Of a stretch of 64,000 nucleotides of DNA, positions 564 through 62,723 are shown one piece after another (position 1 is the stretch's first letter; the number at the start of each line of letters is the position of its first letter). The DNA comes from Mobula birostris. Its lineage: Eukaryota. The notes below the pieces were generated by a model. That model saw only the letters and a list, made by a program, of their open reading frames with translations, did not search any database and was not told the origin of the DNA. Made by a program: the position numbers and the translations under genes. The stretch spans positions 62,420,125 through 62,484,124 of the forward strand of contig NC_092382.1 of assembly GCF_030028105.1 (NCBI RefSeq), read 5' to 3'.

Positions 564-633
564 CGGGAATTCCAAAGGCTGAAATAAAAGGATAGTAAAC
601 GCCTGCTATCCGCCAGATGACTGGATACATCAT
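564..633 (-). CDS. GPR139/GPR142-like GPCR paralog A, coding exon 1 (MMYPVIWRIAGVYYPFISAFGIP+G); exon 2 lies left of the window
   Basis: Minus-strand ATG at 633, 70 nt (23 codons + 1), ending CCCG|gtaagc. Clearly homologous to exon 1 at 9635-9704, and window bases 1-563 resemble the intron of that gene. Confidence 0.85.
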
Positions 634-712
634 TTCAGTGTGAATCTGTGATTTCTGTTGCTTCTGTATTCACAGCTCCGGCAGACAGCTGATGCATTCC
701 AAGCGGCCCTGA

Positions 713-820
713 TTTATACAGAGGATCTCTCTCCAGAGATAAGGTTTTACACCTCACTAACTTCCTTAGTTACAATTGCTTGAACAAACACTTTAATTCA
801 ATACCATTGTCTCTATTGTA
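713..820 (-). promoter_or_regulatory. TATA box and conserved proximal promoter of paralog A
   Basis: TATAAA on minus strand at 713-718, 80 nt upstream of the ATG. The block ACTAACTT(C/T)CTTAGTTAC...AACAAACACTTTAATTCAA..CCATTGTCTCT is shared with 9789-9900. Confidence 0.65.
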
Positions 821-860
821 AACATAGAAACATAGAAACATAGAAAATTGGTGCAGGAGT
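821..860 (-). mobile_element. Tiny CR1 3' tail insertion, (CATAGAAA)n on plus strand
   Basis: Octamer tail repeat plus short 3' UTR remnant, absent from the homologous promoter at ~9900. Confidence 0.55.
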
Positions 861-1043
861 ATTGGTGCATCAAAATTCTTTGGCATTACCTCAGCAGCGC
901 ATATGGTGGAAATAGGCTGGTAGATTTCTTTTCAAAGATTGAGCTTTGTCACGAAGCAGCTACACTTACAGATTTCATCTTTTGTTGGCTAATTATTCAT
1001 CTCTGAACGGAGACCAGCGACACTGATCGATCTTCTTCCTGAT

Positions 1044-1045
<2 letters not shown>

Positions 1046-1095
<50 letters not shown>
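1046..1095. repeat. (CA)n microsatellite
   Basis: Direct read of sequence. Confidence 0.95.
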
Positions 1096-1099
<4 letters not shown>

Positions 1100-1984
1100 C
1101 AATTGCACAGATGTATTTCTATGTTATAGTGACTGTCCTGTTGTACATACTATTTATTATAAGTTACTATAAATTGCACATTGCACATTTACACAGAAAC
1201 ATAACGTAAAGATTTTTACTTCTCTTATATATGAAGGATGTCAGTAATGAATTCAGTACAATTCGAAATACACAAACACAGATTTGAACAAACATACAAT
1301 AGGAAGAAAGAGATCAGGATGGAGACGGTAAAATGAGCACGTTGCTAATGTATAATCACGCTAAAATCTAAAGTTGTTGGCAATCCAGGACAACACAAAG
1401 AACTCTACTGAGTTCCTCCAGCATTTTGTGTGTCATGTTGCTGATGTAACAGTCTTTAATTGGTAACTCAAATCAGTCAAAATGTCAAGAGAAATGGAGA
1501 ATAAATATTTCAGTTTGCAAAGGAAAGGGCAGACTGTTAAATAATCAAAAAACAACAAGGAATTGGCAGAATAGTAAGTGCACGGCGGCTGGAAATGAAG
1601 GAGAGAAAGACAAACGTGAGCTAAATTGATAAATTTAAGACAGAGAGAGAGAGGGGGGGAGGGAGGGGAGAGAGGGGGAGAGAGAGAGAGAAAGATAGAG
1701 GCCGATAGGCAAACTGACAAATAGGTAGGTCAAGAAGGCAGAAAAGCGGCCAGAAACAGATGTATAGATTGCAGGATTGTTGTGTTCCTCCTGTATCACC
1801 TAGTCTCTGGTACAGTATGAGAGTGTGATGTTCACTCTGTACCCATCAGTCTAGGATGCAGTGGGAGTGTGGGGTTCACTCTGTACCTGTCAGTCTATGG
1901 TACAGTGTGATACTGCACAGGGCTGAAAGAAGTGCAGAAGGTTGTAAATGTTATCAGCTCCAACTTGCGTACTAGCCTACAAAG

Positions 1985-4900
1985 TATAACCATATAACAA
2001 TTACAACGTGGAAACAGGCCATCTCGGCCCTTCTAGTCCGTGCCGAATGCTTACTCTCACCTAGTCCCACGGGACCTGAACTCAGCCCATAACCCTCCAT
2101 TCCTTTCCTGTCCACAAACCGATCCAATTTTACTTCAAATGACAATATCGAACCTGCCCTTATCACTTCCACTGGAAGCTCGTTCCACACAGCTACTGCT
2201 CTCTGTGTAAAGAAGCTCCCCCTCGTGTTACCTCTAAACTTTTGCCCCATAAATCTCAACGCATATCCTCTTGTGTGAATATCCCCCACCCTCAATGGTA
2301 AAAGCCTATCCACATCAACTCTATCTATCCCCCTCCTAATTGTAAATACCTGCATCAAGTCCCCCCTCAACCTTCTGCATTGCAAAGAAAAAAGACCTAA
2401 CTAATTCAACCTTTCTCTGTAACTGAGGTGCTGAAACCCAGGTCACATTCTGGTAAATCTTCTCTGTACTCTCTCTATTTTGTTGGCATCTTTCCTCTAA
2501 TTCGGTGACGAGAACTGTACACAATACTCAAAATTTGGTCTTACCAATGCCTTGTTCAATTTTAACATTACATCCCAACTCCTATACTCAATGCTCTGAT
2601 TTATAAAGGGCAGCATACCAAAAGCTTTCTTCACCACGCTATCCACATGAGATTCCACCTTCAGGGAACTATGCACCATTATTCCTAGATCCCTCTGTTC
2701 TACTGCATTCTTCAATGCCCCACCATTTACCATGTATGTCCTATTTTGATTAGTCCTACCAAAATGTAGCATCTCATATTTATCAGCATTAAACTCCATC
2801 TGCCATCTTTCAGCCCACTCTTCTAACTGGCCTAAATCTCTCTGCAAGCTTTGAAAACCTACTTCATTATCCACAACGCCACCTATCTTGGTATCATCTG
2901 CATACTTACTAATCCAATTTACCACACCATCATCCAGATCATTAATATATATGACAAATAAAACATTGGACACAATACAGATCCCTGAGGCACACCGCTA
3001 CACACAGTCCTCCAATCTGACACATAGTTATCCGCCACTACTCTCTGGCGTCTCCCATCCAGCTACCGCTGAATCCATTTTACTACTTCAATATTAATAC
3101 CTAACGATTGAAACTTCATAACTGACCTTCCGTGTGGAACCTTGTCAAAGGCCAGAAAGATGTCCATTTAGACAACATCCACCACTTTACTCTGGTCAAA
3201 TTTCCTAGTAACCTCTTCAAAAATTCAATAAGATTTGTCAAACATGACCTTCCACGCACAAATCCACGTTGACTGTTCCTAACCAGACCCTGTCTATCCA
3301 GATAATTATACATACCATCTCTAAGAATACTTTCCATCAATTTACCCACCACTGACGTCAAATTCACAGGCCGATAATTGCTAGGTTTACTCTTAGAACC
3401 GTTTTTAAACAATGGAACCACATGAACAAAACGCCAACCCTCCGGCACCATCCCTGTTTCGAATGAAATTTGAAATATTTCTGTCAGAGCCCCTGCTATT
3501 TCCACACCAACCTCCCTCAAGGTCCCAGGGAATATCCTCTCAGGTCCCGGAGACTTATCCACTTTTATATTCCTTAAAAGCACCAATGCTTCTTCTTCTT
3601 TAATCATCATAGTTTCTACACCTTCCCTACCTGTTTCCCTTACAATACACAATTCAATATCCTTCTCCTTAGTGAATACCAAAGAAAATAAGCTGTTCAA
3701 AATCTCCCCCATCTCTTTTGGGTCCACACATAGCTGTCCACTCTGATTCTCTAAGGGACCAATTTTATCCCTCACTATCCTTTTGCTGTTAATATAACGG
3801 TAGAAACCCTTTGAATTTCTTACATCTTACTTGTCAAAGCAACCTCGTATCTTCTTTTAGCTTTTCTTATTTCTTTCTTAAGATTATTTTTACATTATTT
3901 ATATTCCTCTAGCACCTCATTTACTCCATGCTGCCTGTATATATTGTAGATACGTCTCTTTTTCCGAACCAAGTCTCCAATATCCCTTGAAAACCATAGC
4001 TCTCTCAAAATTTTAACCTTTCCTTTCAACCTAACAAGAACATAAAGATTCTGTACCCTCAAAATATCACCTTTAAATGACCTCCAATTCTCTATTACAT
4101 CTTTCCTATAAAACAGATTGTCCCAATGCACTCCTTTTAAATCCTTTTGCATCACCTTAAAGTTAGACTTTCTTCAATCAAAATGTCAACCTTAGGTCCA
4201 GACGTATCCTTCTCCATAATTATATTGAAACTAATGGCATTGAGATCACTGCGCCCGAAGTGCTCCCCAACACATACCTCCGTCACTTGACCTATCTCAT
4301 TCCCTAACAGGAGATCTAACGCTGCCCCCTGTCTAGTTGGTTCCTCTATATATTGATGCAAAAAAAACTATCCCCCACACCTTTTACAATCTTCAAACCA
4401 TCTAGCCCTTTTGCTGTAAGGGTTTCCCAGTCTGTGGAAAGTTAAAATCTCCCACATTCCCACCCTTGTGCTTACTACAAATAGCTGCTTTCTCCTTATA
4501 AATTTGCTCCCCCAATTCTCGTTCCACATTAGGTGGTCTATAAAACACCTCTATAAGTGTGTCTACACCTTTCTTATTCTTCAATTCCACCCAAATATCC
4601 TCCCTAGCCGTGCCATCTAATCCACCCTGCCAGAGCACCGCTGTAATATTTCCTCTGAGAAGCAATGCTACACTTCCCCCTCTTGTTCCTCCGATTCTAT
4701 CACACCTGAAGCAACGAAATCCAGGAATATTTAGCTGCCAATCACACTCATCCTGCAACCATGTTCCACTAATAGCTACCACATCATATTTCCATGTATC
4801 AATCCAAGCTTTAAGCTCATTCACCTTTCTTATAATGCTCCTAGCATTAAAATAAATGCATTTATGATATTTTCCACCTGTTACTCTCTGTTTATCACTA

Positions 4901-6090
4901 ACGGTGCAAACAACTTTACTGTCTTCTTTTGCTTTCTTCTCCTAAACATCTGTTCCTACACTCTGGTTCCTCTCACCCCTTGTATCTAGTTTAAATCCAC
5001 TGGAGCCTCTCTAGCAAACATACCTGCAAGAATATTTGTCCCCCTCCAGTTCAGATGTAAACCGTCCCGCCGGAACAGGTCCCACATTCCCTGGAAAACT
5101 GCCCAATTATCTGTAAATCTGAAGTCCTCCCTCCTGTACCATGTCTTCAGGCACGTGTTGATCTGCGCTATCTTACTATTTCTAAACCCGCCTGCACGTG
5201 GCACTGGTAGCTACCCTGAGATTGCTATCCTGGAGGTTCTGTCCTTTAACTTGGCCCCTAACTCCCTAAACTCACCGTTCAGGATTTCCTCACTCTTCCT
5301 ACTCACGTCATTGGTCCCTACATGGACCACGATATCCAGCTGCTCACCCTCCCTCTTGAGTATACTGAGAACTCGATCCGAGATATCGCGGACCTTGGCA
5401 CTATGGAGGAAACAGACCATCCGGGATTCTCGATCTCTTCCACAGAACCTCTTACCTGTCCCCTTACTATCGAATCCCCTATCACTATTGCTCTCTTCTT
5501 TTTCCTCCTTCCCTTTTAAGCTTAGGGTCCCGTCTCGGTACCAGAAAGGCAACCACTGCGACTTGTCCCTATCATGTCGTCCCCATCAATAATATTGAAA
5601 ATGATATACTTATTATTGGTGGGAACGGCCACAGGGGTGCTCTGCTCATTCTGTCTATTCCCCTTCCCTCTCCTGACAGTCACCCAGCTACCTGTCTCCT
5701 GACTCTTAGAAGTGACTATCTCCCTGTAACTCCTGTTGTTTCTGCCTCTGCCTCCCCAATGATCCGAAGTTCATCCAGCTCCAGCTCCAGTTCCCTAACT
5801 CGGTTTGTCAGGAGCTGCAGCTGGATGCACCTTTTACAGGTGTAGTCATCAGGGACAACTGTGCTCGTCCTGACCTCCCACATACTACAAACGGAGCACT
5901 CGACTGCCCTAACTGCTGTCTCCACTGCCTCCCCCTAAGTTAATTAAATTAATTAAAGGAACTTACCCGGCCTTACCTCACTTGGAGTGAACCTCGTCCT
6001 CAGCCTCTGTTCGCCGAAGCCTCTTGAACCAAAGCCTGCCTAATCTATCTCCCTCTACTCCATCGCCCACTACAACTTCGCCCGCTCAGT
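1985..6090 (-). mobile_element. Near full-length CR1-clade LINE, degenerate (ORF1 zinc finger + SGNH esterase; ORF2 APE endonuclease + RT)
   Basis: ORF1: CSVCSMWE...CKRC (5716-5925) and VVHVGTNDV/RDGLHLN esterase motifs (4986-5552). ORF2: DVVAISGTWL, GDFNFP, LDLLLGN, SPGP, NYRPVNLTS, SKYADDT, LVRPNFEYCVQF. 3' TTATA-type tail at ~1985. Many frameshifts and stops. Confidence 0.92.
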
Positions 6091-6169
6091 TAATCTCTTT
6101 CCCGCTGCCTCACGGTCCGACTTTCACGCGCTTGCGCAGTCCTGCCTCGTTCAACTGCCGAAGGTCGTC

Positions 6170-7333: not shown

Positions 7334-8238
7334 CTAACGTTCCATGAGTTTCAAAATCCGATTCAGTGGGTATTTCAACGCATTCTTTAGTTCTTCTCGG
7401 AATTTGCTCTGAGTCAGGGCATAAATACACGTATTGGTGCAGGAACTGAGAACCTGCAGCATTCCCGATGTGTATTCTGTGATGAAACGTGGATCCATGA
7501 CAGAATAATAAACAGCACTCTTTGAAATCCGTTGATAGATATAAAATACCACCTGCGTTACCCACAACAGTATGAAACTACCGGTTATGCTGAAGAGCAA
7601 AGCGATGGATTTGTGTCGGTTCTCCATCTCCCGGTCCCTGTCATTCTCTGGGCTCTGTTGTCCCCGGAGCCCCCTGCGGGCTCGACTGGCCGCTAGAATC
7701 CGCCTGACAGTCTGGATATTGAGCAGCAAAATCAGAAAGAATGGGACACAAGGGGTTAAAATGCGGTGAAACATCGTAAATGCCGCCCATGAGGGGGAGT
7801 TCCTGTAGCTCGGTGTATAAACACAATGCCAGGGAACACCATCAATTATTACCCTAGGCTCCGATACAAACCCCCAGGGGACACTCTCCAAACAGGCCAG
7901 CACACTCACTGTCCCGATAACCACAGCCGCCGTTCTCTCGGTGCAATATTTTGTTTTCAGCTTCTCACAGCAAATAGCCACAAATCGATCGACGGTGAAA
8001 GCGACAGTCAGCCAGACAGAGGCCGCCGTGCTCGCAAATATCAACCAAAAACGGGGTCTGCACACAGCAGTAATGAACAGGAATGATCGCTGAAAATAAA
8101 GCCAAGCAGTCCAGCTCAGTAGCGGATCGAAGATAACGACCAGGAGATCAGCCGCTGCCATTCCCACCATGTAGCGAGTAACACATTTGGAAAGACCGCA
8201 CTTTCCCCGGGACAGGATTACAATCGCCACCAGGTTCG
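7334..8238 (-). CDS. GPR139/GPR142-like GPCR paralog B, exon 2 (gene join 9704-9635,8238-7334; 324 aa)
   Basis: 7TM ORF with ANLVAIVILSRGKCGLSKC, MAAADL, TVDRFVAICC, FILLWVT and SSCTNTCIY. Polypyrimidine tract plus AG acceptor at 8240-8239; phase 1. The ORF-track extension to 8410 is intronic. Confidence 0.92.
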
Positions 8239-9634
8239 CTTGAAGAGAGACAGAGAACAGCAAGTTCAGAAAATACAGAACAGAACGAATCAGGCTGCTT
8301 GAAGGGATTCTGTAATATTTCCACATTATTCTTGCATTTAGAAGTGGAAGGCTCGAGAGGGGGTGCACAGGAGTCGTGAAAAGTGAGTTTACACAGTAAA
8401 CTGAAGTCAATATGATCTGAATGCGGACTCCATACTGATTACCGAAAGGTGAAGTGGGAACGAAAAGCTATAGCTGGGTAACTACCTCCTCGGAGTCAAT
8501 ACTGAGTAAGAATATTTTCTACTAGCTCCATCCCCGTCACGTGCAGCCGAAATTAATAAATCCGGACGGTGATGGCGGGATTCTTCCATTAGACAATCAT
8601 TAGCTTCCACGGTGCTCCCCCTCAGTGACAGAACACCGAAGGACGGAACAAAAACACGAAATGCTGGAAACACTCATCCAGGAGAAACAGAATATGTGGG
8701 GGAAAAAAACAGTTAAAGTGTCTCCTCTCAGAACTGTTCTCAAAGATGCCCCTGACACGAGTGTTGACTGGTTTCTCCATCCATACAAGCTGCCTGAGGC
8801 TAAGTACTTCTAGCATTCCCCGTGTCCGATTCCTAATCCAACATTTGCCACTTCACTGACTTTATAACAGAACATAGACAGATTCCGACAGATACAGCGT
8901 AATCTGACACAACCACTCAGACAGACGTGACGCCCCCACTAAATTCACTGCAGGGAAAGGTGGCAGAGGAATTCTACGGCCAGCGGCAAGCTCGGTGCCG
9001 CAGACAGGTGTCTGTAACGGCGTCAGATGTGGATGTAATGTAATACGTTCAACATTATTGATAATTATGAAGCAACATGTCGGTTGTGTTAATTGTCTCA
9101 GCAACGACTTCATTGAGTAGTCCATCAACTGCTTCACATTCAGTCACAGCGCACACATTTGTTAAAAGTCCGTAGGTTTTACGCTGCAACGTGGAACTCC
9201 TGACATTTGCTAAATTGTTACTGCCAGCTGATGGTTTGATCGTTACACCTAACTCAGACAACCGCTCAAATACAAATGCAGACAATCAATGCGTGTAATC
9301 TCAGCGGGCTGTGTAACACAATGCTGCTCAAACCAGGGCAGCTGCTACAAGACCAAAAACACAGAAAGCCGAACATCAGGTTATTGAACACAACAGCTGG
9401 AAGAACCCTGCCTAACCCGTTGAATTCCACAGATGTTAACCGATTCGCTGAACTTCTGCAGCAGTGCGTTTTCGATCCAGGTCCCAGAATCCACTCTCAC
9501 GGTGCTTCCATTTCATTCCTGAAATGCGGAACACCGGGACTGGACAGGTGACAGTGGATAGCAGCGACAGAAACAATCACAACATTGGAATTAATCTTCT
9601 GTCTCCAGCAAGAGCAGCAGACACTGCGGCTTAC

Positions 9635-9704
9635 CGAGAATTCCAAAGGCTGTAATAAAAGGATAGTAAATTTCTCGTATTCGCAGGAAGACTGCATATC
9701 CCAT
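9635..9704 (-). CDS. Paralog B coding exon 1 (MGYAVFLRIREIYYPFITAFGIL+G)
   Basis: ATG at 9704, 70 nt, donor G|gtaagc. Joins in frame to exon 2, giving TM1 FGIL-A-NL. Intron is 1396 nt. Confidence 0.9.
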
Positions 9705-9788: not shown

Positions 9789-9900
9789 TTTATACATAGG
9801 ATCGGTCTCCCGAGATATGGTTATACCCCTGACTAACTTTCTTAGTTACCGTTACTGAAACAAACACTTTAATTCAACACCATTGTCTCTGACGTAAATA
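9789..9900 (-). promoter_or_regulatory. TATA box and conserved proximal promoter of paralog B
   Basis: TATAAA at 9789-9794 on minus strand, 85 nt upstream of the ATG. Conserved with 713-820. Confidence 0.65.
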
Positions 9901-16894: not shown

Positions 16895-17530
16895 TAGAAC
16901 ATAGAACATAGAACAGTACAGCACAGATCACGCCCTTCGGCCCATAATGTTCTGCCGACCCGCAAACCCTGTTTCCCATATAAGCCCCCGCCTTAAATTC
17001 CTCCATATACCTGTCTAGTAGTGTCTTAAACTTCACTAGTGTATCTGCCTCCACCACTGACCCAGGCAGTGCATTCCACGCACCAACCACTCTCTGAGTA
17101 AAAAACTTTCCGCTACCTTAAAGCCATGTCCTCTTGTATTGAGCAGTGGTGCCCTGGGGAAGAGGCGCTGGCTATCCACTCTATCTATTCCTCTTATTAT
17201 CTTGTACACCTCTATCATGTCTCCTCTCATCCTCCTTCTCTCCAAAGAGTAAAGCCGTAGCTCCCTTAATCTCTGATCATAATGCATACTTTCTAAACTA
17301 GGCAGCATCCTGGTAAATCTCCTCTGTACCCTTTCCAATGCTTCCACATCCTTCCTATAGTGAGGTGACCACAACTGGACACAGTACTGCAAGTGTGGCC
17401 TAACCAGAGTTTTACAGAGCTGCATCATTACATCGCGACTCTTAAACTCTATCGCTCGACTTATGAAAGCTAACACCCCATAAGCTTTCTTAACTACCTT
17501 ATCCACCTGTGAGGCAACTTTCAGGATCTT
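16895..17530 (-). mobile_element. 5'-truncated CR1 LINE 3' end
   Basis: VKKAYGVLAFI...LVRPHLQYCVQLWSPHYRKDVEALERVQRRFTRM...RRMRGDMIEVYKI, with an (ATGTTCT)n tail at ~16895-16915. Confidence 0.9.
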
Positions 17531-17819
17531 AAGCATCTTTTGAGAAACCCATGTTCCCCATTAGTCCTCAGTCCAGACATTCACTAAAGAGCTATCTCCT
17601 GCCCATAGGCCATTCGAACTGCTGGCAATGTTCCCGGCTCGGTGACAGAAATAGAATTTGGAAAACACCCCTAATCTCCATTGCAGAGCAGCCCGGAAAT
17701 TAAAAGCTGCTCTTCAAAAATCTGTAGTGCTCAATCCTTCAATCTCCGAATTCATGGAAATAGTCCAATTATCTGGCACTGACTTCTATAAGTGAAAGTT
17801 GCGGGTGACATCCATATCA

Positions 17820-20732: not shown

Positions 20733-21664
20733 CTACTTAGGGGAGAGAGCCTTAGATGAACTTACATTTGTCTTGGTCAATGCCCGGATAAGGATCCATG
20801 GAGACAATATCAAAGCCTTTAACTCTCTCCTGAAGTTAGTTTGGGTCGCTGCATAAATACACGTGTTTGTACACGAACTCATGTTCGTGAGCATTACCCC
20901 GGTTTGAGCAGCGATATATCGGGCAGAATAATAGTCGCGATCAGAATACATGGTTAGACTGGCGATAAAATTCGTCACTGTCGACGGCAGCCAGAATATC
21001 ATGAAGCTGCCCGACACACAGAACAGTAACATGATGCCCTTTTTTCTGTTCTCCATTTCCGTGTCACGTTCACTCTTACTCTTATGGATTCGGAAGCCCC
21101 TCCGGGATTTGCTGGCCACCAAGATATGCCTGGCTGTCATCCCATTAAATAGAATTATTAAACCAAATGCGCACAGCAAGTTATGAAAGGATTTGAATTT
21201 GCTGAGAGCGACAAACATTGGAGAGTTGAAGAATTCCAATTTCGGGCGAATACCCCACGAAATATTTCCAATTATTTTTTGAGGCTGAAATGCAAACAAT
21301 AAATGTATATTCTCCAAACAAAGCACTGCCAGTATTACTGCTGCCAGGATTCTGGCAATCTTCACTCTGCAGTATTTTGTTTTAAACTTCCGACAGCATA
21401 TGGCAACATATCGATCACAGGTGAAGGCGACGGTGTACCACAGTGATAGTTCCAGAGTGACTGCCAACACGTAGACCGTGGCTTTAAGGACTCTCGTATA
21501 ATGCAGAAATGAATTTGACAGGCGGAATATTAAAATCTCATAGACAAGGACATTGATGAGAATGACAAATAAATCCGTCACAGCCATCATCGTCATGTAG
21601 GCAGAGATGCATTTGGAAAGACCGCATTTTCCCCGGGAGAGAATAATAACTGTTAACAAATTAG
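20733..21664 (-). CDS. GPR139/GPR142-like GPCR paralog C (divergent), exon 2 (gene join 22930-22861,21664-20733; 333 aa)
   Basis: ANLLTVIILSRGKCGLSKC, TCDRYVAICC, FMIFWLP and SSCTNTCIY motifs. Acceptor ttttttctgttgcag at 21666-21665. Confidence 0.9.
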
Positions 21665-22860: not shown

Positions 22861-22930
22861 CGGGTAAACCAAACACTGCTAGTACAGGGTAACAAACGTC
22901 TTTCATCTGTAGGATCGGCGGTCGACGCAT
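22861..22930 (-). CDS. Paralog C coding exon 1 (MRRPPILQMKDVCYPVLAVFGLP+G)
   Basis: ATG at 22930, 70 nt, donor G|gtaagt, in frame with exon 2. TATAAA at 23004-23009 on minus strand. Confidence 0.88.
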
Positions 22931-40142: not shown

Positions 40143-41088
40143 TGTCATGTACGACGCCAAGCAGAGCTACCGGACGGATGATGCTAATTAGAGAGATAAC
40201 GGGAGACAATGGAGAAACATTCAAAATGCTAATAAGAGAGAAGAGAAAGATTAACGAGGAAGAAACACATTTAGATATTGACAGACCGGTTGCTTTGAAT
40301 CTGAACTGTTTGAAGTTTGATGGACAGGTGATACCCCAGCAGAGGGATAAAAGGAGCAGGTTTGCTAAGGCACGAGACACACCAGGAGACACTGGAAAGA
40401 GAAGTGTGCCCCCCACAAGTGGTTTGAGTTTGGAGGACTGGTTCGCGGGAACCGACCAGAGGAGCACAGGGTGTAAAGGTACGATCGGTGGGTACCTGGG
40501 GTGTGTGTCCGCCCTTGCCTGGGTGCCGGGTTCACCGCGGAAGAACGATCGTATCCGGAACGGAGGGGTCACAGTCGGTGACCACAGCGGGTTTAAAAGA
40601 CGCGAAAAGGTCTGCTCGAAACCAACTGCGAAGACTTCAAAAGGTCTGCCTGAAACCAATTGCATCTCCCTCTCTCCCTCTCTCTCTCCAACGGTACAAC
40701 AACAGCGACTACTTCGAACTGCACTAAACTGAACTGAACTGAACTCTGCTTCACTTAAGACTGATCATTTTACCCCTAGACTGCGATAAAGCTTGGTTGA
40801 TTCCCGTTACCCTAGTTCTGTGTAAATGTGTGTATCATCATTGCTAAGCTGTTACATTTATATCCTTACGATTAGTGTACTGTATTACTTATTTCTTTAA
40901 TAAAACTTCTTTACTTCCTAGTAAGCACAGACTCCAACAAGCGTTCCATTTCTGCTGGTTTGGCAAACCAGTTTCGGGGTACGTAACATAAGTGGGGATC
41001 TCGTCCGGGATTTTGAACGCCAAAAATTGGGACTGGGTAAATTGATTGGGTTAAAATTCCCGGAAGAAAAAAAGGGCAAACGGCAGAA

Positions 41089-42743: not shown

Positions 42744-43006
42744 ACTGAGACGTTTTTACCAGCCCTGTACCAGGAGGGGTTAGAAAGTGTGAAGAATGAG
42801 CATAGTGGAGCGGGTGAAAGTAAGGTAGATTGATCATTAGCGAGGAAGGAATTTATACAAGCACAGGAACGAGACGAGGAGCTGATGGTTTTGACGGAGA
42901 CAGCTCTCTCCGAAGCAGAAATAAAAAAGGAACCAGTGGGCTATTATGTGAAGGAGGGAGTACTGATGAGGAAGTGGAGACCAAATACCGTGGCCGCAGA
43001 TGAGGA

Positions 43007-44089
43007 GTGGGGGGGGGGGTGGTACACCAGGTGGTAGTGCCAAACATTTATATGTACGAGATTTTTAACCTGGCCCACAAGATACCCCTCGGTGGACATT
43101 TTGGGGTGAGGAAAACAGTCGATAGAATTATCAAAGAGTTTTACTGGCCGAACATGAGGAAGGATATTATTGAATATTGTAGTCCGGTGTCATTTCTGTC
43201 AGGTGGTAGGAAAGCCGAACCAGGCCCTACCTAAAGCGCCCCTTCGACCGATACACGCTTTCGGGGAACCTTTTTCCCGAATAATTGTGGATTTTGTTGG
43301 TCCCCTGCCCAGAACTGCGAGTGGGCGAGAGTATGTGATGACTATGATGTGTGCTGCCACCAGGTTTCCGGAGGCTGTGCCCCTGGCAAGCGTCAAGGCT
43401 CCCGCAGTGGTAAAGGCGCTTGTGAAATTTTTCACTACGGTGGGGCTGCTAAGGGAAATCCAGTCAGATCAGGGGAGTGTCTTCACATCTCACATATTCC
43501 AACGGATGTTGGACGAGATGGGAGTAAAGCGTATTTTGGCCTCCGCGTACTACCCGGAGTCCCAAGGGGCGTTGGAAAGATTCCACGCAACAATAAAGAC
43601 CATGGTTAAAATTTATTGTCAAGACAACGCTAGGGACTGGGTGATGCCTTGCCTCTCCTGTTATTTGCCGTGAGGGACACGGTTCAGAAGTCATTGAGGT
43701 TCAGCCCATTCGAGCTCGTCTTCGGTCATCGGGCCAGAGGACCTCTGACCTTACTGAAAGAGCAATAGTCCAGTCCGACAGTACAAGTCAATGAAATTGA
43801 TTATGTTTTAAAATTTTGTGAGAGGCTTAAAAGGATCTGTGACCTTGCCAAAGAAAATCTACGACACACCCAAACTAAAATGAAACAGTGGTATGATAGA
43901 CGTGCCCGCGAACAAGTGTTTCAAGTGGGTGATAGGGTCTTGGTTCTGTTTCTAGTGGTAACCAACCCCCTCCAGGTGAGATCCCACGGTCCGTACAAAG
44001 TGATTAAAAAGATAGACCCTTTGAATTATGTTATTGAAACGCCGGACAGATGTAAGCCGACCCAATTAGTACATATTAATATGTTATAA
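43007..44089 (+). pseudogene. Integrase of the Gmr1-type element, frameshifted
   Basis: AHKIPLGGHFG...FYWP...CHFCQ zinc finger; IVDFVGPLP, IQSDQGSVF and ESQGALERFH (DDE); HGPYKV C-terminal domain. Confidence 0.85.
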
Positions 44090-44149
44090 GCTTACCACGA
44101 TCAGAAAGCAGATCTAGTCGGTGTTATCACAAAAATAAATGAGGCTGGG

Positions 44150-45627
44150 GTGCCAAATGATAAGGGGAAACCCCATCTTGAGAAGATAAATATGGTGCCG
44201 ACCAGGTTGGAGAACTCTATTGTTTTGGCCAACTTTGCTGATAAGGTCTCTCACTTAACCCCTGAACAGAGCGAGCCGCTGATAAAGCTAATTAACCTGC
44301 ATGCAGTTGTATGTCCAGATGCCCCGAGGCGATGCAAGGGGACGGCACATGATGTTGTCGTTACATCAGATCAGCCTATTAAGCAACACCCCTATAGGAT
44401 GAACTTGGAGAAGGGCAAGCCAGTGGAGAAAGAAATTGAACACATACTAGCCACAGGTATTATTAGGCCATCCAAATCGGGATGGGTTTCTCCCTGTGTG
44501 GTTGTCCCGAAACCCGATGGGAGCATACGATTCTGTACAGATTACAGAAAGGTGAACGCCATCACACAAACCGATGCTTACCCCATCCCAAGGGTAGACG
44601 ATTGCATCGATAAAGTGGGGAGAGCTAAGTACGACACAACGATCGATTTGCTAAAAGGGTACTGGTGCGTTCATTTAACCGACCAGGCTCGAGAAATCTC
44701 AGCATTTGTCACTCCATCGGGGTTATACGAGTACAATGTTTTATCTTTTGGCATGAAGAACGACCCAGGGACCTTCCAAAGGATAATTAATTCAGTGATA
44801 AAAAGGTTAAAGAACGCAGAACTGTATATTGACGATTTATTGGTCTGGAGTGACACGTGGGAGGAGCACATTGTGGCAGTAGAGGAACTGTTTAAACGGC
44901 TGTCTGAAGCCAACCTGACAGTGAACCTCTCGAAAAGTGAGTTCGGCCACGCTAAGGTCACTTATCTGGGGTATGTGGTCGGACAGGGGCAGCTGGCACC
45001 GATGCAGGCTAAGGTGCAAGCTAGCTCTGAAGTTCCGATCCCGACGGACAAGAGAGACCTGAGAAGGTTCTTGGGGATGGTGTGGTACTATCGGAAGTTT
45101 TGCAAAAACTTTGCGGATATTACCCTCCTTCTTACTAAGCTCTTGCCGAAGAACGCGAAGTTTGTGTGGAATGACCTTGTCGAAAAGCCTTCGAGAGTCT
45201 GAAGGCGATTCTGTGTCACCACCCTGTATTGAATGCGCCTGACCTTTCAAAACCCTTTTCCATAACAACAGATGCTAGCGACGAAGTGGCAGGGGTGGTG
45301 CTGTTGCAGACCGACTAAGAGAAGATCGAACACCCAGTGGCTTATTTTTTTTAAGAAGTTTAATGTCCATCAGAGAAATTATTCCACTGTGGAGAAGGAA
45401 TTACTGGCAATCATACTAGCATTACAGCATTTTTAGTTTATATCTGTCCGGCACGGAAACCACTGATAATTTACACTGATCACGATCCATTAGTGTTTTT
45501 GGTCACAATGAAGGATAAAAACAAACTGTTACTAAGTTGGAGTCTGGTCTTACAGGAATTTGATATTAAGATAAAACATATAAAAGGAACGGACAATGTG
45601 ATTGCTGATTGCCTGTCAAGGTGTTAA
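44150..45627 (+). pseudogene. Reverse transcriptase and RNase H of the Gmr1-type element
   Basis: SPCVVVPKPDGSIRFCTDYRKVN, IDLLKGYW, YIDDLLV and YLGYVVG motifs. RNase H TTDAS, NYSTVEKELLAI, IYTDHDPL and NVIADCLSR lies in shifted frames. Confidence 0.88.
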
Positions 45628-46587
45628 AACTTAAAGTTCTCTGTATTAACCGAATAGCTGTTGACTACCTGTATATTATAGTGTGTATCTTATAATGTGC
45701 ATTCATCCCCTTGATTTTTTCACCAGTAAAAATCCTTTTAAGGGTGGGGGTGTCATCTGCGACGCCAAGCAGAGCTACCGGACGAATGATGCTAATGAGA
45801 GACATTACGAAAGACAATGGAGAAACATTCAAAATGCTAATAAGAGAGAAGGGAGTGATTAACGAGAAAGAAACACAATTTAGATATTGACAGACCGGTT
45901 GCTTTGAATCTGAACTGTTTGAAGTTTGATGGACAGGTGATACCCCAGCAGGGGGATAAAAGAACAGGTTTGCTAAGGCACGAGACACGCCACGAGACCC
46001 TGGAAAGAGCAGTGTGTCCCCACAAGTTGGTGGAGTTTGGTGGACCGGTTCGCGGGAATCGATCAGAGGCTCACAGGGTCTAAAGGTACGGTCGGTGGGA
46101 ACCTGGGATGTGTGTCCGCCCTTGCCTGGGTGCCGGGTTCACCGCGGAAGAACGATCGTATCCGGAACGGAGAGGTCACAGTCAGTGACCAAAGCGGGAT
46201 TAGAAGACATCAAAAGTTCTGCCCGAAACCAACTGCGAAGACATCAAAAGGTCTGCCTGAAACCAATTAAATCTCCCACTCTCTCTCTCCCTCTCTCTCT
46301 CCAATGGTACAACAGCGATTACTTCGAACTGCACTGAACTGCACCGAACTCTGCTTCACTTAAGACTGATCATTTTACTCCTAGACTACAATAGAGCTTG
46401 ATTGATTCCTATTACCCTATTTCTGTGTATATGTGTGTATTATCATTGCTAACCTGTTACATTTATTTCCTTGCGATTAGTGTACTGTATTACTTATTTC
46501 TTGAATAAAACTTTATTAGATCCTAGTAATCACAGACTCCAACGAGCGTTCTGCTGGTTTGGCAACCCAGTTACGGGGTACGTAACA

Positions 46588-49203: not shown

Positions 49204-49279
49204 ATGCCTGCATTGTTTGATAGGTACCTGCTTGTGGACAAAGTATTGAACATGTTCATCGCCGTTATTGGAGTTCCCG
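49204..49279 (+). CDS. Paralog D coding exon 1 (MPALFDRYLLVDKVLNMFIAVIGVP+G)
   Basis: ATG at 49204, 76 nt, donor G|gtgagt, phase 1. TATA-like TATTAAAA at 49116-49123. Confidence 0.85.
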
Positions 49280-50087: not shown

Positions 50088-50995
50088 TGAATTTCGTGGC
50101 GATTGTGATCCTCTCCCGGGGAAAGTGCGGCCTCTCTACCTGCACCACTCGCTACCTGGTGGCCATGGCAGTAGGGGATCTACTGACCGTTGTTAGCGAG
50201 GTCACTTTATTTCGAATCATATATAAATACTTTCCGTGGACTTTTCTGAGCATTACCCCTGTGTGCAGGGTGATCGAGGTACTGAGGTTCACAGCCACAT
50301 ACTGCTCTGTCTGGTTCACCGTCGCTTTCACTTTTGATCGGTTTGTCACCATTTGCTGCCAGAAGCTGAAAACAAAATATTGCACCGGGAAAACTGCGGT
50401 TTTGGTTCTCACAACAACCGGCGTGCTGTGCTGTCTGAAAAATATCCCCCGCTACTTCCTCTGGGAACCCAGAGAGGTAATCGTCAATGTACCGTGGTTC
50501 TGTGACCTAATGGACTATTCTCTCACCGACCCCTGGTGGGTAGGATATGATTGGCTCGATACGGTTTTAAGTCCGTTCATCCCTTTCGTTGTGATTCTGC
50601 TGCTCAACGCTCTGACAGTCCGGCACATTTTAATGTCCAGTCGGGTCCGTAAGGGACTGAGGGGTCAAAGCAAAGGCCAGAATCCCAGTGACCCGGAGAT
50701 GGAGAGCAGGAGGAGGTCTGTGGTTCTATTCTTCACCCTCTCCGGCAGCTTCATCCTCCTGTGGCTGACACTGGTTGTAAATTTCATGTATTACGAGATC
50801 AGAGCAAAAGGATTTGATTTCAATGATTCTGAATGGATCTTTCACTTTGTCGGGGTTTTGCTGAAGAATTTGAGCTGCTGCACGAACACGTTTATTTACG
50901 CGGTGACTCAGTCGAAATTCAGGGAGCGGGTGATCAGAGCGGTGAAATATCCGATCACCTCGGTGCTTCAGTTCATTAATAAAGCCGCGACCTGA
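50088..50995 (+). CDS. GPR139/GPR142-like GPCR paralog D, exon 2 (gene join 49204-49279,50088-50995; 327 aa)
   Basis: Acceptor ttctttcttcccgcag ends at 50087. VNFVAIVILSRGKCGLSTC, IEVLRFTATYCSVWFTVAFTFDRF and SCCTNTFIY motifs. Confidence 0.92.
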
Positions 50996-56929: not shown

Positions 56930-57160
56930 TGTCATTCACCGTCTCTCATTTTGGAAGGGATTCAGTCGGCCATCGCAGATACACCAGCAGCTTCGCACTG
57001 GAAAGCGGCCGTTCACCTGCTCCGTGTGTGCGAAGAGACTCATTCAATTAACCCACCTTGTGATGCTCCGGTGAGTTCACAATAAATAGAGGCCACATTT
57101 CTGTCCGGAGTGAACAAAGAGTGAGCACCACCAGCAACTTCACATTAGGGAGGAAGTTCA
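56930..57160 (+). pseudogene. Decayed C2H2 zinc-finger array fragment
   Basis: From 56997: [31 protein letters not shown], with TGERPF-type linkers and stops. Preceded by a GKGFS-like remnant. Confidence 0.7.
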
Positions 57161-58260: not shown

Positions 58261-58289
58261 TGCTACCCCTCCCTGATACCCCATACATC

Positions 58290-59530
58290 CCTAATACTAG
58301 ATCTAGAATGGCATTCCCCCTAGTCGGCCTGTCAACGTGCTGTGACAGCAATCCTACCTGCACACACTTAACAAACTCTGCCCCGTCTAAGCTATTGGAA
58401 CTAATCAGGTGCCAATGAATATCACGGAAGTTAAAGTCAGCTATGATAACAACCCTGTTATTTTGCACCTTTCCAAAATCTGCCTCCCAATCTGCTCCTC
58501 GGTATTTCTGCTGCCTCCACGGGGCCTATAGAACATACCCAATAGAGTAACTGCTCCCTTCCTGTTTCTGACTTCTACCCATGCTGACTCAAAAGAAGAC
58601 CCTGCTATATTACCCACCCTTTCAGCAGTTATACTAGTATCCTTGATCAGTAATGCCACTCTCCCCCTCCCTCCCCCATCCCATTTAAAGCACTGATATC
58701 CAGGAATATTGAGAATCCATTCCTGCCCTGGTGCCAGCCAAGTCTCTGTAATGGCCACTATATCATAATTCCATGTATGTATCCAAGCTCTCAGTTCATC
58801 ACCTTTGTTCCTGATGCTTTTTCCTTTGAAGTACACACACTTTAGCCCTTCTACCTGAGTACCTTTACACCCTTTATTCTGTTTCTCTTTCCTCAAAGCC
58901 TCTTTGTATGTTAGATCCGGCTTTATTCCATGCACTATACTTGCAATTCTCGCATGACCTTTATCTTCCTCCACCTCACTACCTGCTCTAACACTCTAGT
59001 TCCCTTCCTCTTGCAAATCTAGTTTAAACCACCCGGAGCAGCTCTAGCAAACCTTCCCACAAGGATATTAGTCGCCCTCCAGTTCAGGTGCAACACGTCC
59101 CGTCGGAATAGGTCCCACCTTCCCTGGAACAAGGCCCAATTGTCCAGAAATATGAAGCCCTCCCTCCTGCATCAACTCCTTAGTCACGTATTTAGCTGCA
59201 TTATCTTCCTATTCCTAGCCTCACTAGCACGTAGCATGGGTAGCTATCCTGAGATTGCAACCCGAAGTTCCTGTTCTTCAACATTGCAACTAACTTCCTA
59301 AACTCTCTTTGCATGATCTCCTCTTTTTTTCTATCCACGTCATTGGTCCCTACATGGATCACGACATCTGGTTGCTCGCCCTCCCTCTTGAGAATACTGA
59401 GAACTCGATCCGAGAAATCGCGGACCCTGGCACCGGGGAGACAACAGACCGTCTAGGATTCTGGATCTCTTCCACAGAACCTCTTACCTATCCCCCTAAC
59501 TATCGAATCCGCTATCACTACTGCTCCCCT
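58290..59530 (-). mobile_element. CR1 fragment (ORF1 esterase and ORF2 endonuclease)
   Basis: VVIADSIVRG, YDIVAITETWL, MFYRP, ADFNF and PTRGNAILDLVLG motifs. Confidence 0.88.
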
Positions 59531-59587
59531 CGTTTCAAAGTTGCTGGTGAACGCAGCAGGCCAAGCAGCATCTGTAGGAAGAGGTGC

Positions 59588-59623
59588 AGTCGACGTTTCA
59601 GGCCGAGACCCTTCGTCAGGACT
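59588..59623 (-). ncRNA. Minimal type I hammerhead ribozyme motif in a Penelope-derived terminal repeat
   Basis: Minus strand reads AGTC-CTGACGA-AGG(GTCTCGG)CCT-GAAA-C-GTC-GACT: stem I AGTC/GACT, CUGANGA and GAAA cores, stem II AGG/CCT, palindromic ACGT stem III, GUC cleavage triplet. Confidence 0.75.
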
Positions 59624-59965
59624 AACTGAAGGAACTGATGTAAATAAGAAATAAGATAACAATTAATATGAAGTCAGTATCAATCACTTGAGTTGTGGAG
59701 CCCTTTGATGTGAGCTCATTGTTCGGGTGAGTGCAATTATTCCCCTCTAATTCAAAAGCCTGATCATTTAGGAAGAAAAGCTATTCCTAAACCTAGTGCT
59801 GTGGGAATTGACGTTCCTGAAACTCCTTCCTGAAGGCAGCGTCCTTAAACAAGCATCACCTGGACAATGCGCGTTTTCATGATGAATGCTGTTTTCCTGT
59901 GACATCCCTCCTTGTAGGTGTTCTTAGTGGTGGGGAGGACTTTACCTATGACAGACTATCTTTAT

Positions 59966-60786
59966 TGTCATGTGCCCCGTGACGGGTTAAATAACCAGCA
60001 GAAATAGAAAACACTTTGGAGTCCGGTATTGCTATTAACTAATGATATTTGTTAGTAACTACGCAATACAGTAATATAAATGCAGGTAAATCAAACAAGT
60101 TAGCAATGATTACATATAAGTAAGTGTGCAATGTATATGAAAACAAAGCTTCTTCAAGTCTACTGGTAAATAAATAGTCTTACGATAATGAGTAAAGTTC
60201 AGTTCAGTTCGTGGTATTGAGTTGAGTAGTGATGGAGAGAGAGAGAGAGAAACAGGGAGAGATTTGAATTGTCAGGCGAACTGACGCCGTCGATCTTCCC
60301 GTTGTCCTCCGAAATCCTTTAAAAGTCATCGACTGTGACCGCAACAAAGGGGGCCGTTCTTCTGATGTGGAATCATCATCCCAGGGAAGAGTTGGCCACA
60401 TGGACAACTCCCCACCAGTCACTCCCTTTTCACACTGTAAGAGCCACCGATCGATCCGCCTGATCGATCCTCCAAAAAAAAAACACTTTCTTTCTGTGAG
60501 CACAACGACAAAGAAATAGATACGTGGTGAGACTTTAATCTCTTCCAGGGAAGATGACCGTTGGCTCTCAAAGAGCTCATCCACTCTTTGTAAGGCCTTG
60601 TTTTTTTTAGTCCTGCTGGGTGTTCGCACACCCTCCTCGCCAGACTAAGTCCGGTGGTGGAGCCGGCCAAGTCGCTGACAACTCGACCACGGCCCCCGGC
60701 CGAGCACCGGGCGCCCGCACCCGCCGAATCTCTCCGAGCGTGATGACAAGTTAAACTACATCTTTCCCTGCATGTGGTCTGTGACA
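59966..60786 (-). mobile_element. Solo LTR related to the Gmr1-type LTRs
   Basis: Reverse complement ends GACTCCAAAGTGTTTTCTATTTCTGCTGGTT...CGGGGCACATGACA, like the LTR 3' ends at 40988 and 46587. Also shares GAACTGAACT and (TC)n blocks. Far end approximate; no clean TSD. Confidence 0.65.
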
Positions 60787-61196
60787 TCCAGTGAACAAAA
60801 CCCAACGAGTTATTTACGACCTTAATGCTCTTTGATCACATTCCCTAACTATCATCCCTTTGAGAATATCACCATACACACTTCTTCCTCCATGTCCTAC
60901 TTCTTCATGAAGTCGAATGAATGCAAAGTATTTATTTGCTACCTCGCACGCCAATTCTGGCTCCGGGTATAAACTCACAATTTTATCATTGAGTGGTCCT
61001 GCGCTCTCTCCAGCATAATGTTAATTACAGTGTATGCATAAAATGCCTTGGGATTTCCGTTAATCCTCCTCACTCTAGTCATTTCCTCGTCACTATTCAG
61101 TCTCCCGAATCACAGAGTGATTGTATCGTTGGTTCCCTATGTTCCTTCGAGACCTAATATCAGCTTTTCATAATTTCAGATGTCCACAACATCTCC

Positions 61197-61199
<3 letters not shown>

Positions 61200-61264
<65 letters not shown>

Positions 61265-61277
61265 TTTCTCTCTCTCA
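61200..61277. repeat. (TC)n microsatellite
   Basis: Direct read of sequence. Confidence 0.95.
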
Positions 61278-61818
61278 GTCTCTGAAGTAAAGACAATGGA
61301 ATTTTGTCTTCATATGTAAATCAGTAAAATTGTGCTACTGGAACTAGTTCATGATGTCAGATAGGAGAACCTACAAGTTGAGAAAGAGGAAAAAACGAGG
61401 GTGAAAGAAAGGACCGGTAATGACGGGTGTAATGGTGGTTATTACCGACGGAAGTATACCCCATGATGAGGCAGTTCTGTTTGAACCAGGAAACAGGGGT
61501 AAATGATTCGCCACGACATTCAATGCAACCGGGGCGTGAGGTAAGGTGCAAAGTGGATCCCTCTGGGACGCTGTAAACAGTTGGGTTGTTACTCTAAGGC
61601 AACACACAAAGATCTTAATGGAGCTCAGCAGACCAGAGAGCAAATGTAGAAAAGAGTAAACTCTGATTCTGTGTGTGTTGTTTTCTATTTCAAGCATCTG
61701 CAGGTTTTCTCGTGTTTTAGTTTTATAGCTCCATGCATAACATGGTTTAAATTTACCCACAAGTGGCGGTACAGAATAAGAAACATGAAGGCAACTGAAT
61801 AACTTACAACATTTATTT

Positions 61819-62723
61819 CTAACGTCTAATGAGTTTCATAATCGGAATCAATGGGTATTTAAGAATATTTCTGAGCTCCTTTCGGAACTTTCTCTGCGTC
61901 AAGGCGTAAATAAAAGTGTTGGTGCAGGAACTCATAATCTGCAACATTCCCGATATCTCGTCTGTGATGTAACGGGGGTCAGTGACAGAATAATAAACAA
62001 ACGTCTTTGAAACCCGTTGATAGATGTAAAATACCACTCGTGTTACCCACAAGAATATAAAACTACCGGTTATACTAAAGAGCAAAATGATGGATTTGCG
62101 TCGGTTCCCCATCTCCTGGTCCTTGTCATTCTCTGCACACTTTCGTTCCCGGAGCCTCCTGCGGGCTCGACTGGCCACTAAAATCTGCCTGACAGTCCGA
62201 ATATTGAACAGCAAAATCAGAAAAAAAGGAACACAAGGGGTTAAAATATGGTAAATCATTGCAAATGCCGCCCATGAGGGAGACTTTTTGTAGCTTGATG
62301 TAAAAACACAATACCAGGGAACACCACCCATTATTACCAAAGGCTCGTACACAAAGCCCCAGGGGACACACTCCAAACTGGCCAGCACACTCACTGTGCA
62401 TACAACCACCGCCGCCGTTCTCTCGGTGCAATATTTTGTTTTCAGCTTCTCACAGCAAATAGCCACAAATCGATCGACAGTGAAAGCGACAGTCAGCCAG
62501 ACAGAGGTCGCAGTGCTCGAGAAAATTAACCATGTACCGAGTCTGCACAGAGGAGTGATGAACAGGAAAGATTGAGGGAAATAAATCCAAGCAGTCCACG
62601 TCAGCAGAGGTTGCGAGATGACGACCAGGAGATCGGCGGCGGCCATTCCCACCAGGTAACGAGTGACACATTTGGACAGACCGCACTTTCCCCGGGACAC
62701 TATCACAACCGCCAGCAGGTTCG
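61819..62723 (-). CDS. GPR139/GPR142-like GPCR paralog E, exon 2; exon 1 expected just beyond 64000
   Basis: Same 905-nt exon length and acceptor (ctcttccag at 62725-62724) as paralog B. Intron 62724-64000 is collinear with 8239-9600. Confidence 0.9.

What the first reader, a model, noticed from the sequence alone, without database searches (positions are those of the whole stretch)
564..62723. Tandem array of five intact-looking GPR139/GPR142-like receptors: candidate lineage-expanded chemosensory or metabolite-sensing family
Seen: five paralogs in 64 kb with open reading frames in otherwise decayed TE-rich DNA. Wherever the exons are in view they show a very short N-terminus, a 70-76 nt first exon and a phase-1 intron splitting TM1 at G-x-x|A/V-N. 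They fall into at least three subfamilies (A/B/E close; C and D distant), and D is on the opposite strand. Intracellular motifs are near-invariant while ECL1/ECL2/ECL3 differ, even between the close pair B and E. Established: mammalian GPR139 and GPR142 are single-copy class A receptors activated by aromatic amino acids. The segments YYxxxxxxGLPANxLTVIILS and IEVLxFxxxxxSxWxTVxxTxDR match GPR139 as I recall it. Cartilaginous fishes have very few classical odorant receptors. Inference: this birth-and-death clustered architecture is what chemoreceptor repertoires look like, so this may be an uncharacterised receptor repertoire for amino acids or peptides (olfactory, taste, gut or immune).
Basis: partly seen in the sequence, partly recalled or inferred. 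Interest (0 to 1): 0.8.

Follow-up and report, generated by a model that had tools for sequence, protein, structure and literature searches.

The report
Huge shark-and-ray orphan receptor family
These genes are a few members of a family of about two thousand related cell-surface receptor genes in one ray genome, whose ligand pockets are diversifying under selection, which suggests that sharks and rays have a large, so far unrecognised set of chemical sensors.

Summary
The array is real, but it is a small sample of something far larger. Four of the five paralogs (B, C, D, E) are intact two-exon class A GPCRs; A is a pseudogene. One 21-base motif of the family occurs 2,038 times in this genome (control 2), on at least 11 large contigs. 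44 of 59 sampled motif-bearing loci have an open exon 2, giving roughly 1,200-2,000 intact genes. Relatives occur across rays, sharks and a chimaera. They are not GPR139 or GPR142: both exist here as single copies, and orthology to GPR139 is rejected. The family is sister to a single conserved salamander gene within a wider GPR139-related group that shares the TM1 intron. Cytoplasmic parts are under purifying selection (dN/dS 0.1-0.4), pocket positions near 1, with positive selection in 4 of 5 subfamilies, at pocket and ECL2 sites in the two strongest. This fits a ligand-recognition repertoire with a common output. Tissue and ligand are unknown; no expression evidence was obtained. NCBI labels members 'probable GPR139'; I found no paper describing the expansion.

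The parts
564..633 (-). Gene A exon 1 (70 nt). Exon 2 lies outside the window and is broken, so A is a pseudogene
713..718 (-). TATA-like box of gene A; upstream region 73% identical to that of B
7334..8238 (-). Gene B exon 2 (300 codons, mid-TM1 to stop), intact, Pfam 7tm_1
9635..9704 (-). Gene B exon 1 (70 nt); intron 1,396 nt
9789..9794 (-). TATA box of gene B, 90 nt before the ATG
20733..21664 (-). Gene C exon 2 (309 codons), intact; this subfamily lacks both cysteines of the TM3-ECL2 disulfide
22861..22930 (-). Gene C exon 1 (70 nt); intron 1,196 nt; TATA box 79 nt before the ATG
49204..49279 (+). Gene D exon 1 (76 nt); intron 808 nt
50088..50995 (+). Gene D exon 2 (301 codons), intact; database protein P0001 (327 aa) is the same two-exon model; predicted 7TM fold with helix 8
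61819..62723 (-). Gene E exon 2 (300 codons), intact; exon 1 at 64031-64100, just outside the window; intron 1,307 nt

Best explanation
The genes are members of a chondrichthyan-expanded family of two-exon rhodopsin-class GPCRs that works as a ligand-recognition repertoire for cues from outside the body, most likely in sensory cells (nose, taste buds or skin). SHOWN: each gene is a compact unit (TATA-like box, 22-28-codon exon 1, one phase-1 intron, about 300-codon exon 2). The family has about 2,000 or more loci here, spreads partly by duplication of multi-gene blocks and loses members by pseudogenisation. The activation switches and cytoplasmic face are held constant while pocket and ECL positions diversify, some under positive selection. 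INFERRED: the constant face couples to one shared G protein (Gq/11 by descent from the GPR139 group, or Go); different members bind different small peptides or amino-acid derivatives, since the closest characterised relatives bind aromatic amino acids and peptides; each cell expresses one or a few members, giving a combinatorial code. Tissue, ligand and G protein are not shown.
For: Size: 2,038 exact matches to a TM7 motif (control 2) and 1,191 to an ICL1 motif (control 1); 20 of 20 fetched TM7-motif loci were family members. Birth and death: exon 2 open in 23 of 40, 12 of 20 and 16 of 18 loci in three samples. Function is maintained: whole-exon omega 0.40-0.67, below 1 in 4 of 5 subfamilies (p 2e-5 to 2e-21; fifth p 0.07). 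N1.50, D2.50, S3.39, D3.49, R3.50, N5.58, W6.48, N7.49 and Y7.53 are invariant in 97 of 97. Diversification is placed where ligands bind: dN/dS at 32 pre-chosen pocket positions 0.62-1.28 against 0.19-0.37 for inner TM and 0.12-0.36 for intracellular loops in six subfamilies; pocket against other outer-TM positions p=0.0026. M2a beats M1a in 4 of 5 subfamilies; in B all 7 selected sites are pocket (2.65, 3.28, 3.29, 6.51, 6.58) or ECL2, in the D subfamily all 6 are; 30 null simulations gave at most 2dL 4.0 against 23.5-68.7 observed. Context: cartilaginous fishes have only 20-62 complete olfactory receptor genes and 2-5 taste receptor genes (PMC10869828, passages).
Against: No expression evidence of any kind. 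Promoters show a TATA-like box but no enrichment of olfactory-type motifs (EBF-like 2 of 11 subfamilies, homeodomain 4 of 11 against 3.7 shuffled). The same selection pattern is expected of immune or parasite-sensing receptors. The closest bony-vertebrate relative is a single, very conserved salamander gene, which looks like a receptor for an internal ligand. One subfamily shows no positive selection (p 0.4), and in subfamily C the selected sites are scattered, with 1 of 6 in the pocket. Gene conversion between paralogs, which was not tested, can inflate site tests. The catshark nose is already accounted for by V2R in microvillous neurons (PMC10116579, passages).
Confidence: 0.55

Rival explanations
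1. An innate-immune or barrier repertoire: the receptors sit on leukocytes, mast-like cells or gut, gill and skin epithelium and detect microbial or parasite peptides and metabolites, as formyl-peptide receptors and MRGPRs do in mammals.
For: Positive selection on the pocket and rapid turnover fit an arms race. Very short N-termini without glycosylation sequons (0 of 90 exon-1 peptides) and loss of the disulfide in subfamily C recall MRGPRs (recalled, not tested). MAS1 relatives are reported missing in cartilaginous fishes (PMC8455134, passage), leaving that role open.
Against: About 2,000 loci is far above known immune GPCR families (recalled) and matches odorant-receptor scale. No immune gene was seen among the long ORFs of two 200-kb tiles (multi-exon genes would be missed).
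Confidence: 0.22
2. Receptors for the animal's own fast-evolving peptides or reproductive signals (sperm, oviducal gland, pheromones), co-evolving with an expanded ligand family.
For: The group descends from peptide-type receptors: GPR139/142 cluster with protostome MIP, proctolin and FMRFamide receptors (PMC12208981 section 8; PMC8514136 passages); the best fold matches are peptide receptors; the atlas neighbours include FMRFamide-receptor-like clusters.
Against: No matching ligand family is known to me; the fold matches do not discriminate among class A receptors (TM 0.66-0.76 for all); thousands of receptors for internal ligands would be unprecedented.
Confidence: 0.11
3. Mostly neutral amplification: a compact gene is carried along by segmental duplication in repeat-rich DNA, and only a few copies matter.
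For: 6 of 11 near-identical B copies have a C copy 13.3-13.5 kb away on the same strand, so blocks are copied whole; 8 sampled intact exons were exact DNA duplicates; 11-43% of sampled loci are broken; overall omega near 0.5 is relaxed.
Against: Even recent subfamilies (C, 90-97% identical) show omega below 1 (p 2e-5); constraint is sorted by protein region; subfamilies are shared between rays, sharks and a chimaera; most copies are still open. The copy number in this genome may still be partly neutral.
Confidence: 0.1
4. The copy number is an assembly artefact (uncollapsed haplotypes).
For: Some copies are identical, and 10 of 387 listed matches are on small contigs.
Against: 377 of 387 are on large contigs; 97 distinct intact exons form 51 groups at 90% and 19 at 70% identity; 2,313 database clusters at 90% identity match, from many species.
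Confidence: 0.02

Closest known systems
GPR139 and GPR142 (vertebrate orphan class A GPCRs activated by Trp/Phe)
   Same: Best sequence match among solved structures (E 1e-8); same phase-1 intron at the same TM1 codon; W6.48, N5.58 and lack of P7.50 shared.
   Different: 19-23% identity; GPR139 and GPR142 are separate single-copy genes in this genome; family+GPR139 clade rejected (AU p 2e-47); most members have the TM3-ECL2 cysteines and a longer ECL2 and ICL3; E3.32 in 0 of 97, N7.39 in 1 of 97.
Unnamed single-copy vertebrate 'probable GPR139' paralogs (salamander P0458/P0510/P0513; coelacanth and teleost P0473/P0481; fish-wide P0241 group)
   Same: Short N-terminus with YP...G-x-P in TM1; the salamander gene is sister to the family (100/99) and shares the DPEM..RRRS motif; 25-31% identity.
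   Different: They appear as single conserved genes; the chondrichthyan lineage expanded to thousands. None has a known ligand in what I read.
Vertebrate chemoreceptor families OR, TAAR, V1R/ORA, T2R
   Same: Clustered birth-and-death evolution, large pseudogene share, short N-terminus, variable pocket with fixed cytoplasmic face, repertoire of similar size to the largest OR sets (2,278-2,399 complete).
   Different: Not homologous beyond class A (Pfam 7tm_1 only); coding sequence has an intron; no sensory expression shown.
MRGPR and formyl-peptide receptor expansions (recalled)
   Same: Lineage-specific clusters derived from non-sensory class A receptors, with short N-termini.
   Different: Different ancestry; one to two orders of magnitude larger here.

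Membership tests
Class A (rhodopsin-like) GPCR | 7tm_1 domain, seven helices plus helix 8, N1.50, D2.50, D/E-R3.50, W6.48, N7.49-x-x-Y7.53 | tested here: met
   Pfam above cut-off for B, C, D, E; model of D, pLDDT 76, seven helices and helix 8; motifs in 97 of 97
GPR139 (orthologue) | Groups with vertebrate GPR139 in a tree; high identity to it | tested here: not met
   20-23% identity; true orthologue at G000:C11; AU p 2e-47
GPR139 (orthologue) | Trp/Phe site F3x33, H5x43, W6x48, N7x38 (PMC5430874, abstract) | tested here: not met
   All four in 0 of 97; F+H+W in 25 of 97, all B subfamily
GPR142 (orthologue) | Groups with vertebrate GPR142 | tested here: not met
   True orthologue at G000:C28 groups with shark, chimaera and lungfish GPR142, 100/99
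Wider GPR139-related group | Phase-1 intron at G-x-P|x-N in TM1 | tested here: met
   Same acceptor position in the family, GPR139 and GPR142
Wider GPR139-related group | Branching order: nearer to GPR139/142 or to the other unnamed paralogs | tested here: inconclusive
   Best tree joins it with the unnamed paralogs (94/93), but the alternative is not rejected (AU p 0.098); outgroup sampling is thin
Chemoreceptor repertoire (works like OR/TAAR/V1R) | Large clustered family with pseudogenes | tested here: met
Chemoreceptor repertoire (works like OR/TAAR/V1R) | Diversifying ligand pocket with conserved cytoplasmic face | tested here: met
Chemoreceptor repertoire (works like OR/TAAR/V1R) | Sparse expression in sensory cells | not testable with these tools
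   No run on record as RNA held the gene
Chemoreceptor repertoire (works like OR/TAAR/V1R) | Activation by external chemicals | not testable with these tools
   needs assays
OR, TAAR, V1R, V2R or T2R (membership) | Family-specific domain or best match | tested here: not met
   Only Pfam 7tm_1 hits; nearest relatives are GPR139-like

The most novel reading that the evidence does not exclude
Cartilaginous fishes built their own large chemoreceptor family, independent of OR, TAAR, V1R, V2R, T1R and T2R, from a GPR139-related peptide or amino-acid receptor. With 1,200-2,000 intact genes in this ray it rivals the largest mammalian odorant-receptor repertoires, is expressed sparsely in olfactory or taste cells, and explains how sharks and rays discriminate chemicals with only a few dozen classical receptors.
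Probability: 0.4. Interest if true: 0.95.

Novelty: new variant of a known kind. Interest (0 to 1): 0.86.

Why it matters
Cartilaginous fishes are described as poor in GPCRs and olfactory receptors (PMC8455134; PMC10869828), which sits oddly with their reputation for smell. A family of about 2,000 loci hidden under one automatic label changes that picture whatever its tissue. If sensory, it is a new vertebrate chemoreceptor family and makes the question of how sharks smell directly testable with existing catshark tissue data. If immune, it is an innate receptor repertoire of unusual size. It also points to three unnamed vertebrate paralogs of GPR139 and warns that the label 'probable GPR139' covers several different genes.

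Tried and rejected
Expression: no RNA holder was listed. Four runs guessed to be RNA were laid on gene B at 80% likeness: no exon 1-exon 2 joint among the rows shown, loose ends run into intron-like sequence and intron bins are covered, so they may be DNA; no conclusion. Three short-contig database proteins (P0024, P0033, P0045) hold exon 2 only. Promoters: an EBF-like palindrome seen in A and B is not family-wide. Fold search: 500 class A matches with similar scores, GPR139 at rank 34, not discriminating. A search for a copy of the coelacanth-type paralog in this genome gave no answer twice, so its presence is open. Earlier scan findings: none. Paper searches 13 and 19 needed only two of their terms and listed no paper with the GPR139 terms among 30 of 1,899 and 40 of 2,224, so they say little. 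The catshark genome paper's supplement could not be read. Branch-by-branch substitution counts were not made; selection rests on pairwise counts and likelihood models. Rejected: five intact genes; orthology to GPR139 or GPR142; membership of OR, TAAR or V1R; assembly artefact.
Full report
OBSERVATION. A translated search of the window finds four full second exons, B (8238-7334, -), C (21664-20733, -), D (50088-50995, +) and E (62723-61819, -). First exons are A 633-564, B 9704-9635, C 22930-22861 (70 nt each) and D 49204-49279 (76 nt), each ending in phase 1 at G-x-x|A/V-N. All four exons pass the Pfam 7tm_1 cut-off, and the model of D has seven helices and helix 8 (pLDDT 76). The flanking 20 kb on each side show that E has its first exon at 64100-64031, that a sixth intact paralog F lies near 72-74 kb, and that exon 2 of A carries two small insertions and an in-frame stop. 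So four of the five are intact and A is a pseudogene. Exon-2 identities are B-E 76%, B-D 50%, B-C 40%, C-D 34%.

SCALE. The window lies on G000 contig C17. Gene B as query gave 5,166 first-look candidates; all 131 scored were at least 80% identical. A 17-nt ICL1 motif has 1,191 exact matches (reversed control 1) and a 21-nt TM7 motif 2,038 (control 2). I fetched 40 of the first 100 listed ICL1 loci, 20 of the first 100 listed TM7 loci, and three motif-independent tiles (104 kb around the window, 200 kb each on C24 and C33). All 20 TM7 loci were family members, one of them only a fragment. Exon 2 was open in 23 of 40, 12 of 20 and 16 of 18; a first exon was found within the fetched flank for 40 of those 51. 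Of 59 loci bearing the TM7 motif 44 were open, which scales to about 1,500 (1,200-1,900 by sample), and 7 of 39 intact genes in the ICL1 and tile samples lack the motif. The samples are not random, so this is an estimate: at least about 2,000 loci and roughly 1,200-2,000 intact genes. Members were confirmed on C3, C4, C5, C6, C7, C9, C11, C17, C24, C33 and C34. Density varies: 6 genes in 104 kb, 11 in 200 kb, 1 in 200 kb. Only 10 of 387 listed protein matches were on small contigs. 6 of 11 near-identical B copies, the window's included, have a C copy 13.3-13.5 kb away on the same strand (read), so multi-gene blocks were duplicated across some 50 Mb of C17.

RANGE. Gene D finds 2,313 database clusters (90% identity) among 3,453 candidates; of the 120 listed, 117 are named and all of these come from rays and sharks, nearly all labelled probable or putative GPR139. 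The identical protein P0001 carries a Mobula label. A profile search of 50% representatives gave 131 at E below 1e-30. I named 20 of the 150 listed: 10 mid-ranking ones were nine elasmobranch and one chimaera; 10 weaker ones included salamander, coelacanth and teleost genes and unnamed proteins.

RELATION TO GPR139. A GPR139 motif matches once in the genome; that exon is 87% identical to human GPR139. With it as query the genome yields GPR139 (C11), GPR142 (C28, 56%), then hits at 23-35%, mostly family members, among them a third single gene on C3 whose relatives are found across fishes. GPR139, GPR142 and the family share the same TM1 splice acceptor. In a tree of 61 proteins (LG+G4, 305 columns) GPR139 and GPR142 form one clade (100/99). 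The 28 family rows (91/95) are sister to three nearly identical salamander proteins (100/99), and join the C3 group and a coelacanth-teleost group at 94/93. The chimaera member nests inside the family and C pairs with a skate gene (a long-branch pair), so the expansion probably began early in cartilaginous fishes. Family plus GPR139 as a clade is rejected (AU p 2e-47); family plus salamander as sister of GPR139/142 is not (p 0.098). The NCBI label is thus a best-hit name. Of the residues that GPR139 needs for Trp and Phe (F3x33, H5x43, W6x48, N7x38; PMC5430874, abstract), no member has all four and 25 of 97 have three.

SELECTION. I used 97 distinct intact second exons; broken loci and exact duplicates were dropped. 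Nine switch residues are invariant in 97 of 97. Single-ratio omega is 0.57, 0.54, 0.53, 0.40 and 0.67 in the five subfamilies with six or more members (76 of 97 sequences), below 1 in four. Thirty-two pocket positions were chosen beforehand from generic class A numbering (recalled knowledge, anchored on the invariant residues, not checked against model coordinates). Pairwise dN by region over whole-exon dS, in six subfamilies (80 of 97), was pocket 0.62-1.28, extracellular loops 0.57-1.81, other outer TM 0.44-0.67, inner TM 0.19-0.37, intracellular loops 0.12-0.36. Pocket exceeds other outer TM (p 0.0026) and extracellular exceeds intracellular loops (p 2e-7), and the three fastest sites are 3.29, 6.58 and 6.51. 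No pocket interval excludes 1 on its own. My own M1a/M2a test favours positive selection in B (p 1e-15), the D subfamily (6e-8), C (8e-6) and L022 (0.004), not in L005 (0.4). The selected sites in B and D are all pocket or ECL2; those in C are scattered, and L022 gives a diffuse list. Thirty null simulations stayed at or below 2dL 4.0. Gene conversion was not tested.

REGULATION AND EXPRESSION. Most subfamilies have a TATA-like box 68-89 nt before the ATG, so each gene seems to carry its own promoter; no olfactory-type motif is enriched across 11 subfamilies. No expression evidence was obtained. In the catshark, the 50 top genes of a brain and olfactory library held no GPCR (PMC11979771, section 11), which applies to V2R as well and so does not discriminate.

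MECHANISM. Shown: a compact two-exon receptor gene multiplied by block duplication in repeat-rich DNA and turning over by pseudogenisation, with a conserved signalling face and a diversifying pocket. Inferred: many ligands, one output. I put external chemosensation at 0.55, immune or barrier sensing at 0.22, self or reproductive peptides at 0.11, mostly neutral growth at 0.10 and artefact at 0.02. That it is a selected ligand-recognition repertoire of some kind is about 0.88.

NOVELTY. The proteins are in public annotation under an automatic name. Searches requiring GPR139 with shark and expansion (4 papers), 'receptor 139' with shark, GPR139 with skate, ray and transcriptome, GPR139-like or GPR142-like, and broader ones (listings only) showed no paper that describes the expansion. 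The catshark genome paper has no '139' in its main text (supplement unreadable and may bear on this). The whale shark paper speaks of GPCR paucity (passages) and its 24 supplementary files hold one GPR142 mention. Two other shark genome preprints have no GPCR mention (term searches). A 2025 GPR139 review does not mention sharks (PMC12208981, passages and section 8). Complete olfactory receptor counts are 20-62 in cartilaginous fishes and up to 2,514 in mammals (PMC10869828, passages). The library lacks most subscription papers, so prior description cannot be excluded.

VERDICT. A real and much larger finding than reported: an apparently undescribed, very large, positively selected GPCR family of cartilaginous fishes, related to but distinct from GPR139/142, working like a chemoreceptor repertoire, with tissue and ligands open.

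Noticed in passing
window 40143-46587 (+): Decayed LTR retrotransposon with two 89% identical LTRs (40143-40988, 45751-46587), a SCAN-bearing gag, and integrase placed before reverse transcriptase, the order of Gmr1-like Gypsy elements (recalled).
   Followed up: partly
L083, G000:C3:115344283-115345098: A third single-copy GPR139-related gene, with relatives in sharks, chimaera, coelacanth, lungfish and teleosts among the 120 listed, none from tetrapods; labelled GPR139 but a separate clade. It keeps E3.32 and the disulfide cysteines.
   Followed up: partly
P0458, P0510, P0513: The salamander sister gene is extremely conserved among three salamander genera (branches 0.01-0.09); a good handle on the ancestral ligand.
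   Followed up: partly
P0473, P0481, P0497: A further unnamed paralog group (coelacanth, a teleost and an unlabelled UniRef entry); its presence in this genome could not be checked.
   Followed up: partly
window 20733-21664 (gene C): Subfamily C has lost both cysteines of the TM3-ECL2 disulfide together, as GPR139 has, yet has about 40 copies on C17 at 85% identity or more.
   Followed up: partly
G000:C17 33-87 Mb: B and C copies recur at a fixed 13.3-13.5 kb spacing, and B-subfamily copies about 10 kb from B-like genes (the position of A) are open in some other blocks.
   Followed up: partly
G000:C7:118.19-118.50 Mb: A regular tandem run of about 15 motif matches spaced near 20 kb, mostly on one strand; three fetched were intact and closely related.
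   Followed up: partly
G000:C24, about 60.439 Mb: A C2H2 zinc-finger ORF lies among the receptor genes.
   Followed up: no
window 8239-8470 and 62724-62930: The 3' part of the intron is conserved between B and E (75% over 2.4 kb including the exon) and is stop-free in B, which makes the exon-2 ORF look longer than it is.
   Followed up: no
window 1975-5590, 17039-17560, 26321-26698, 39133-40134, 58444-59535: Fragments of LINE elements and a Tc1-type transposase.
   Followed up: no
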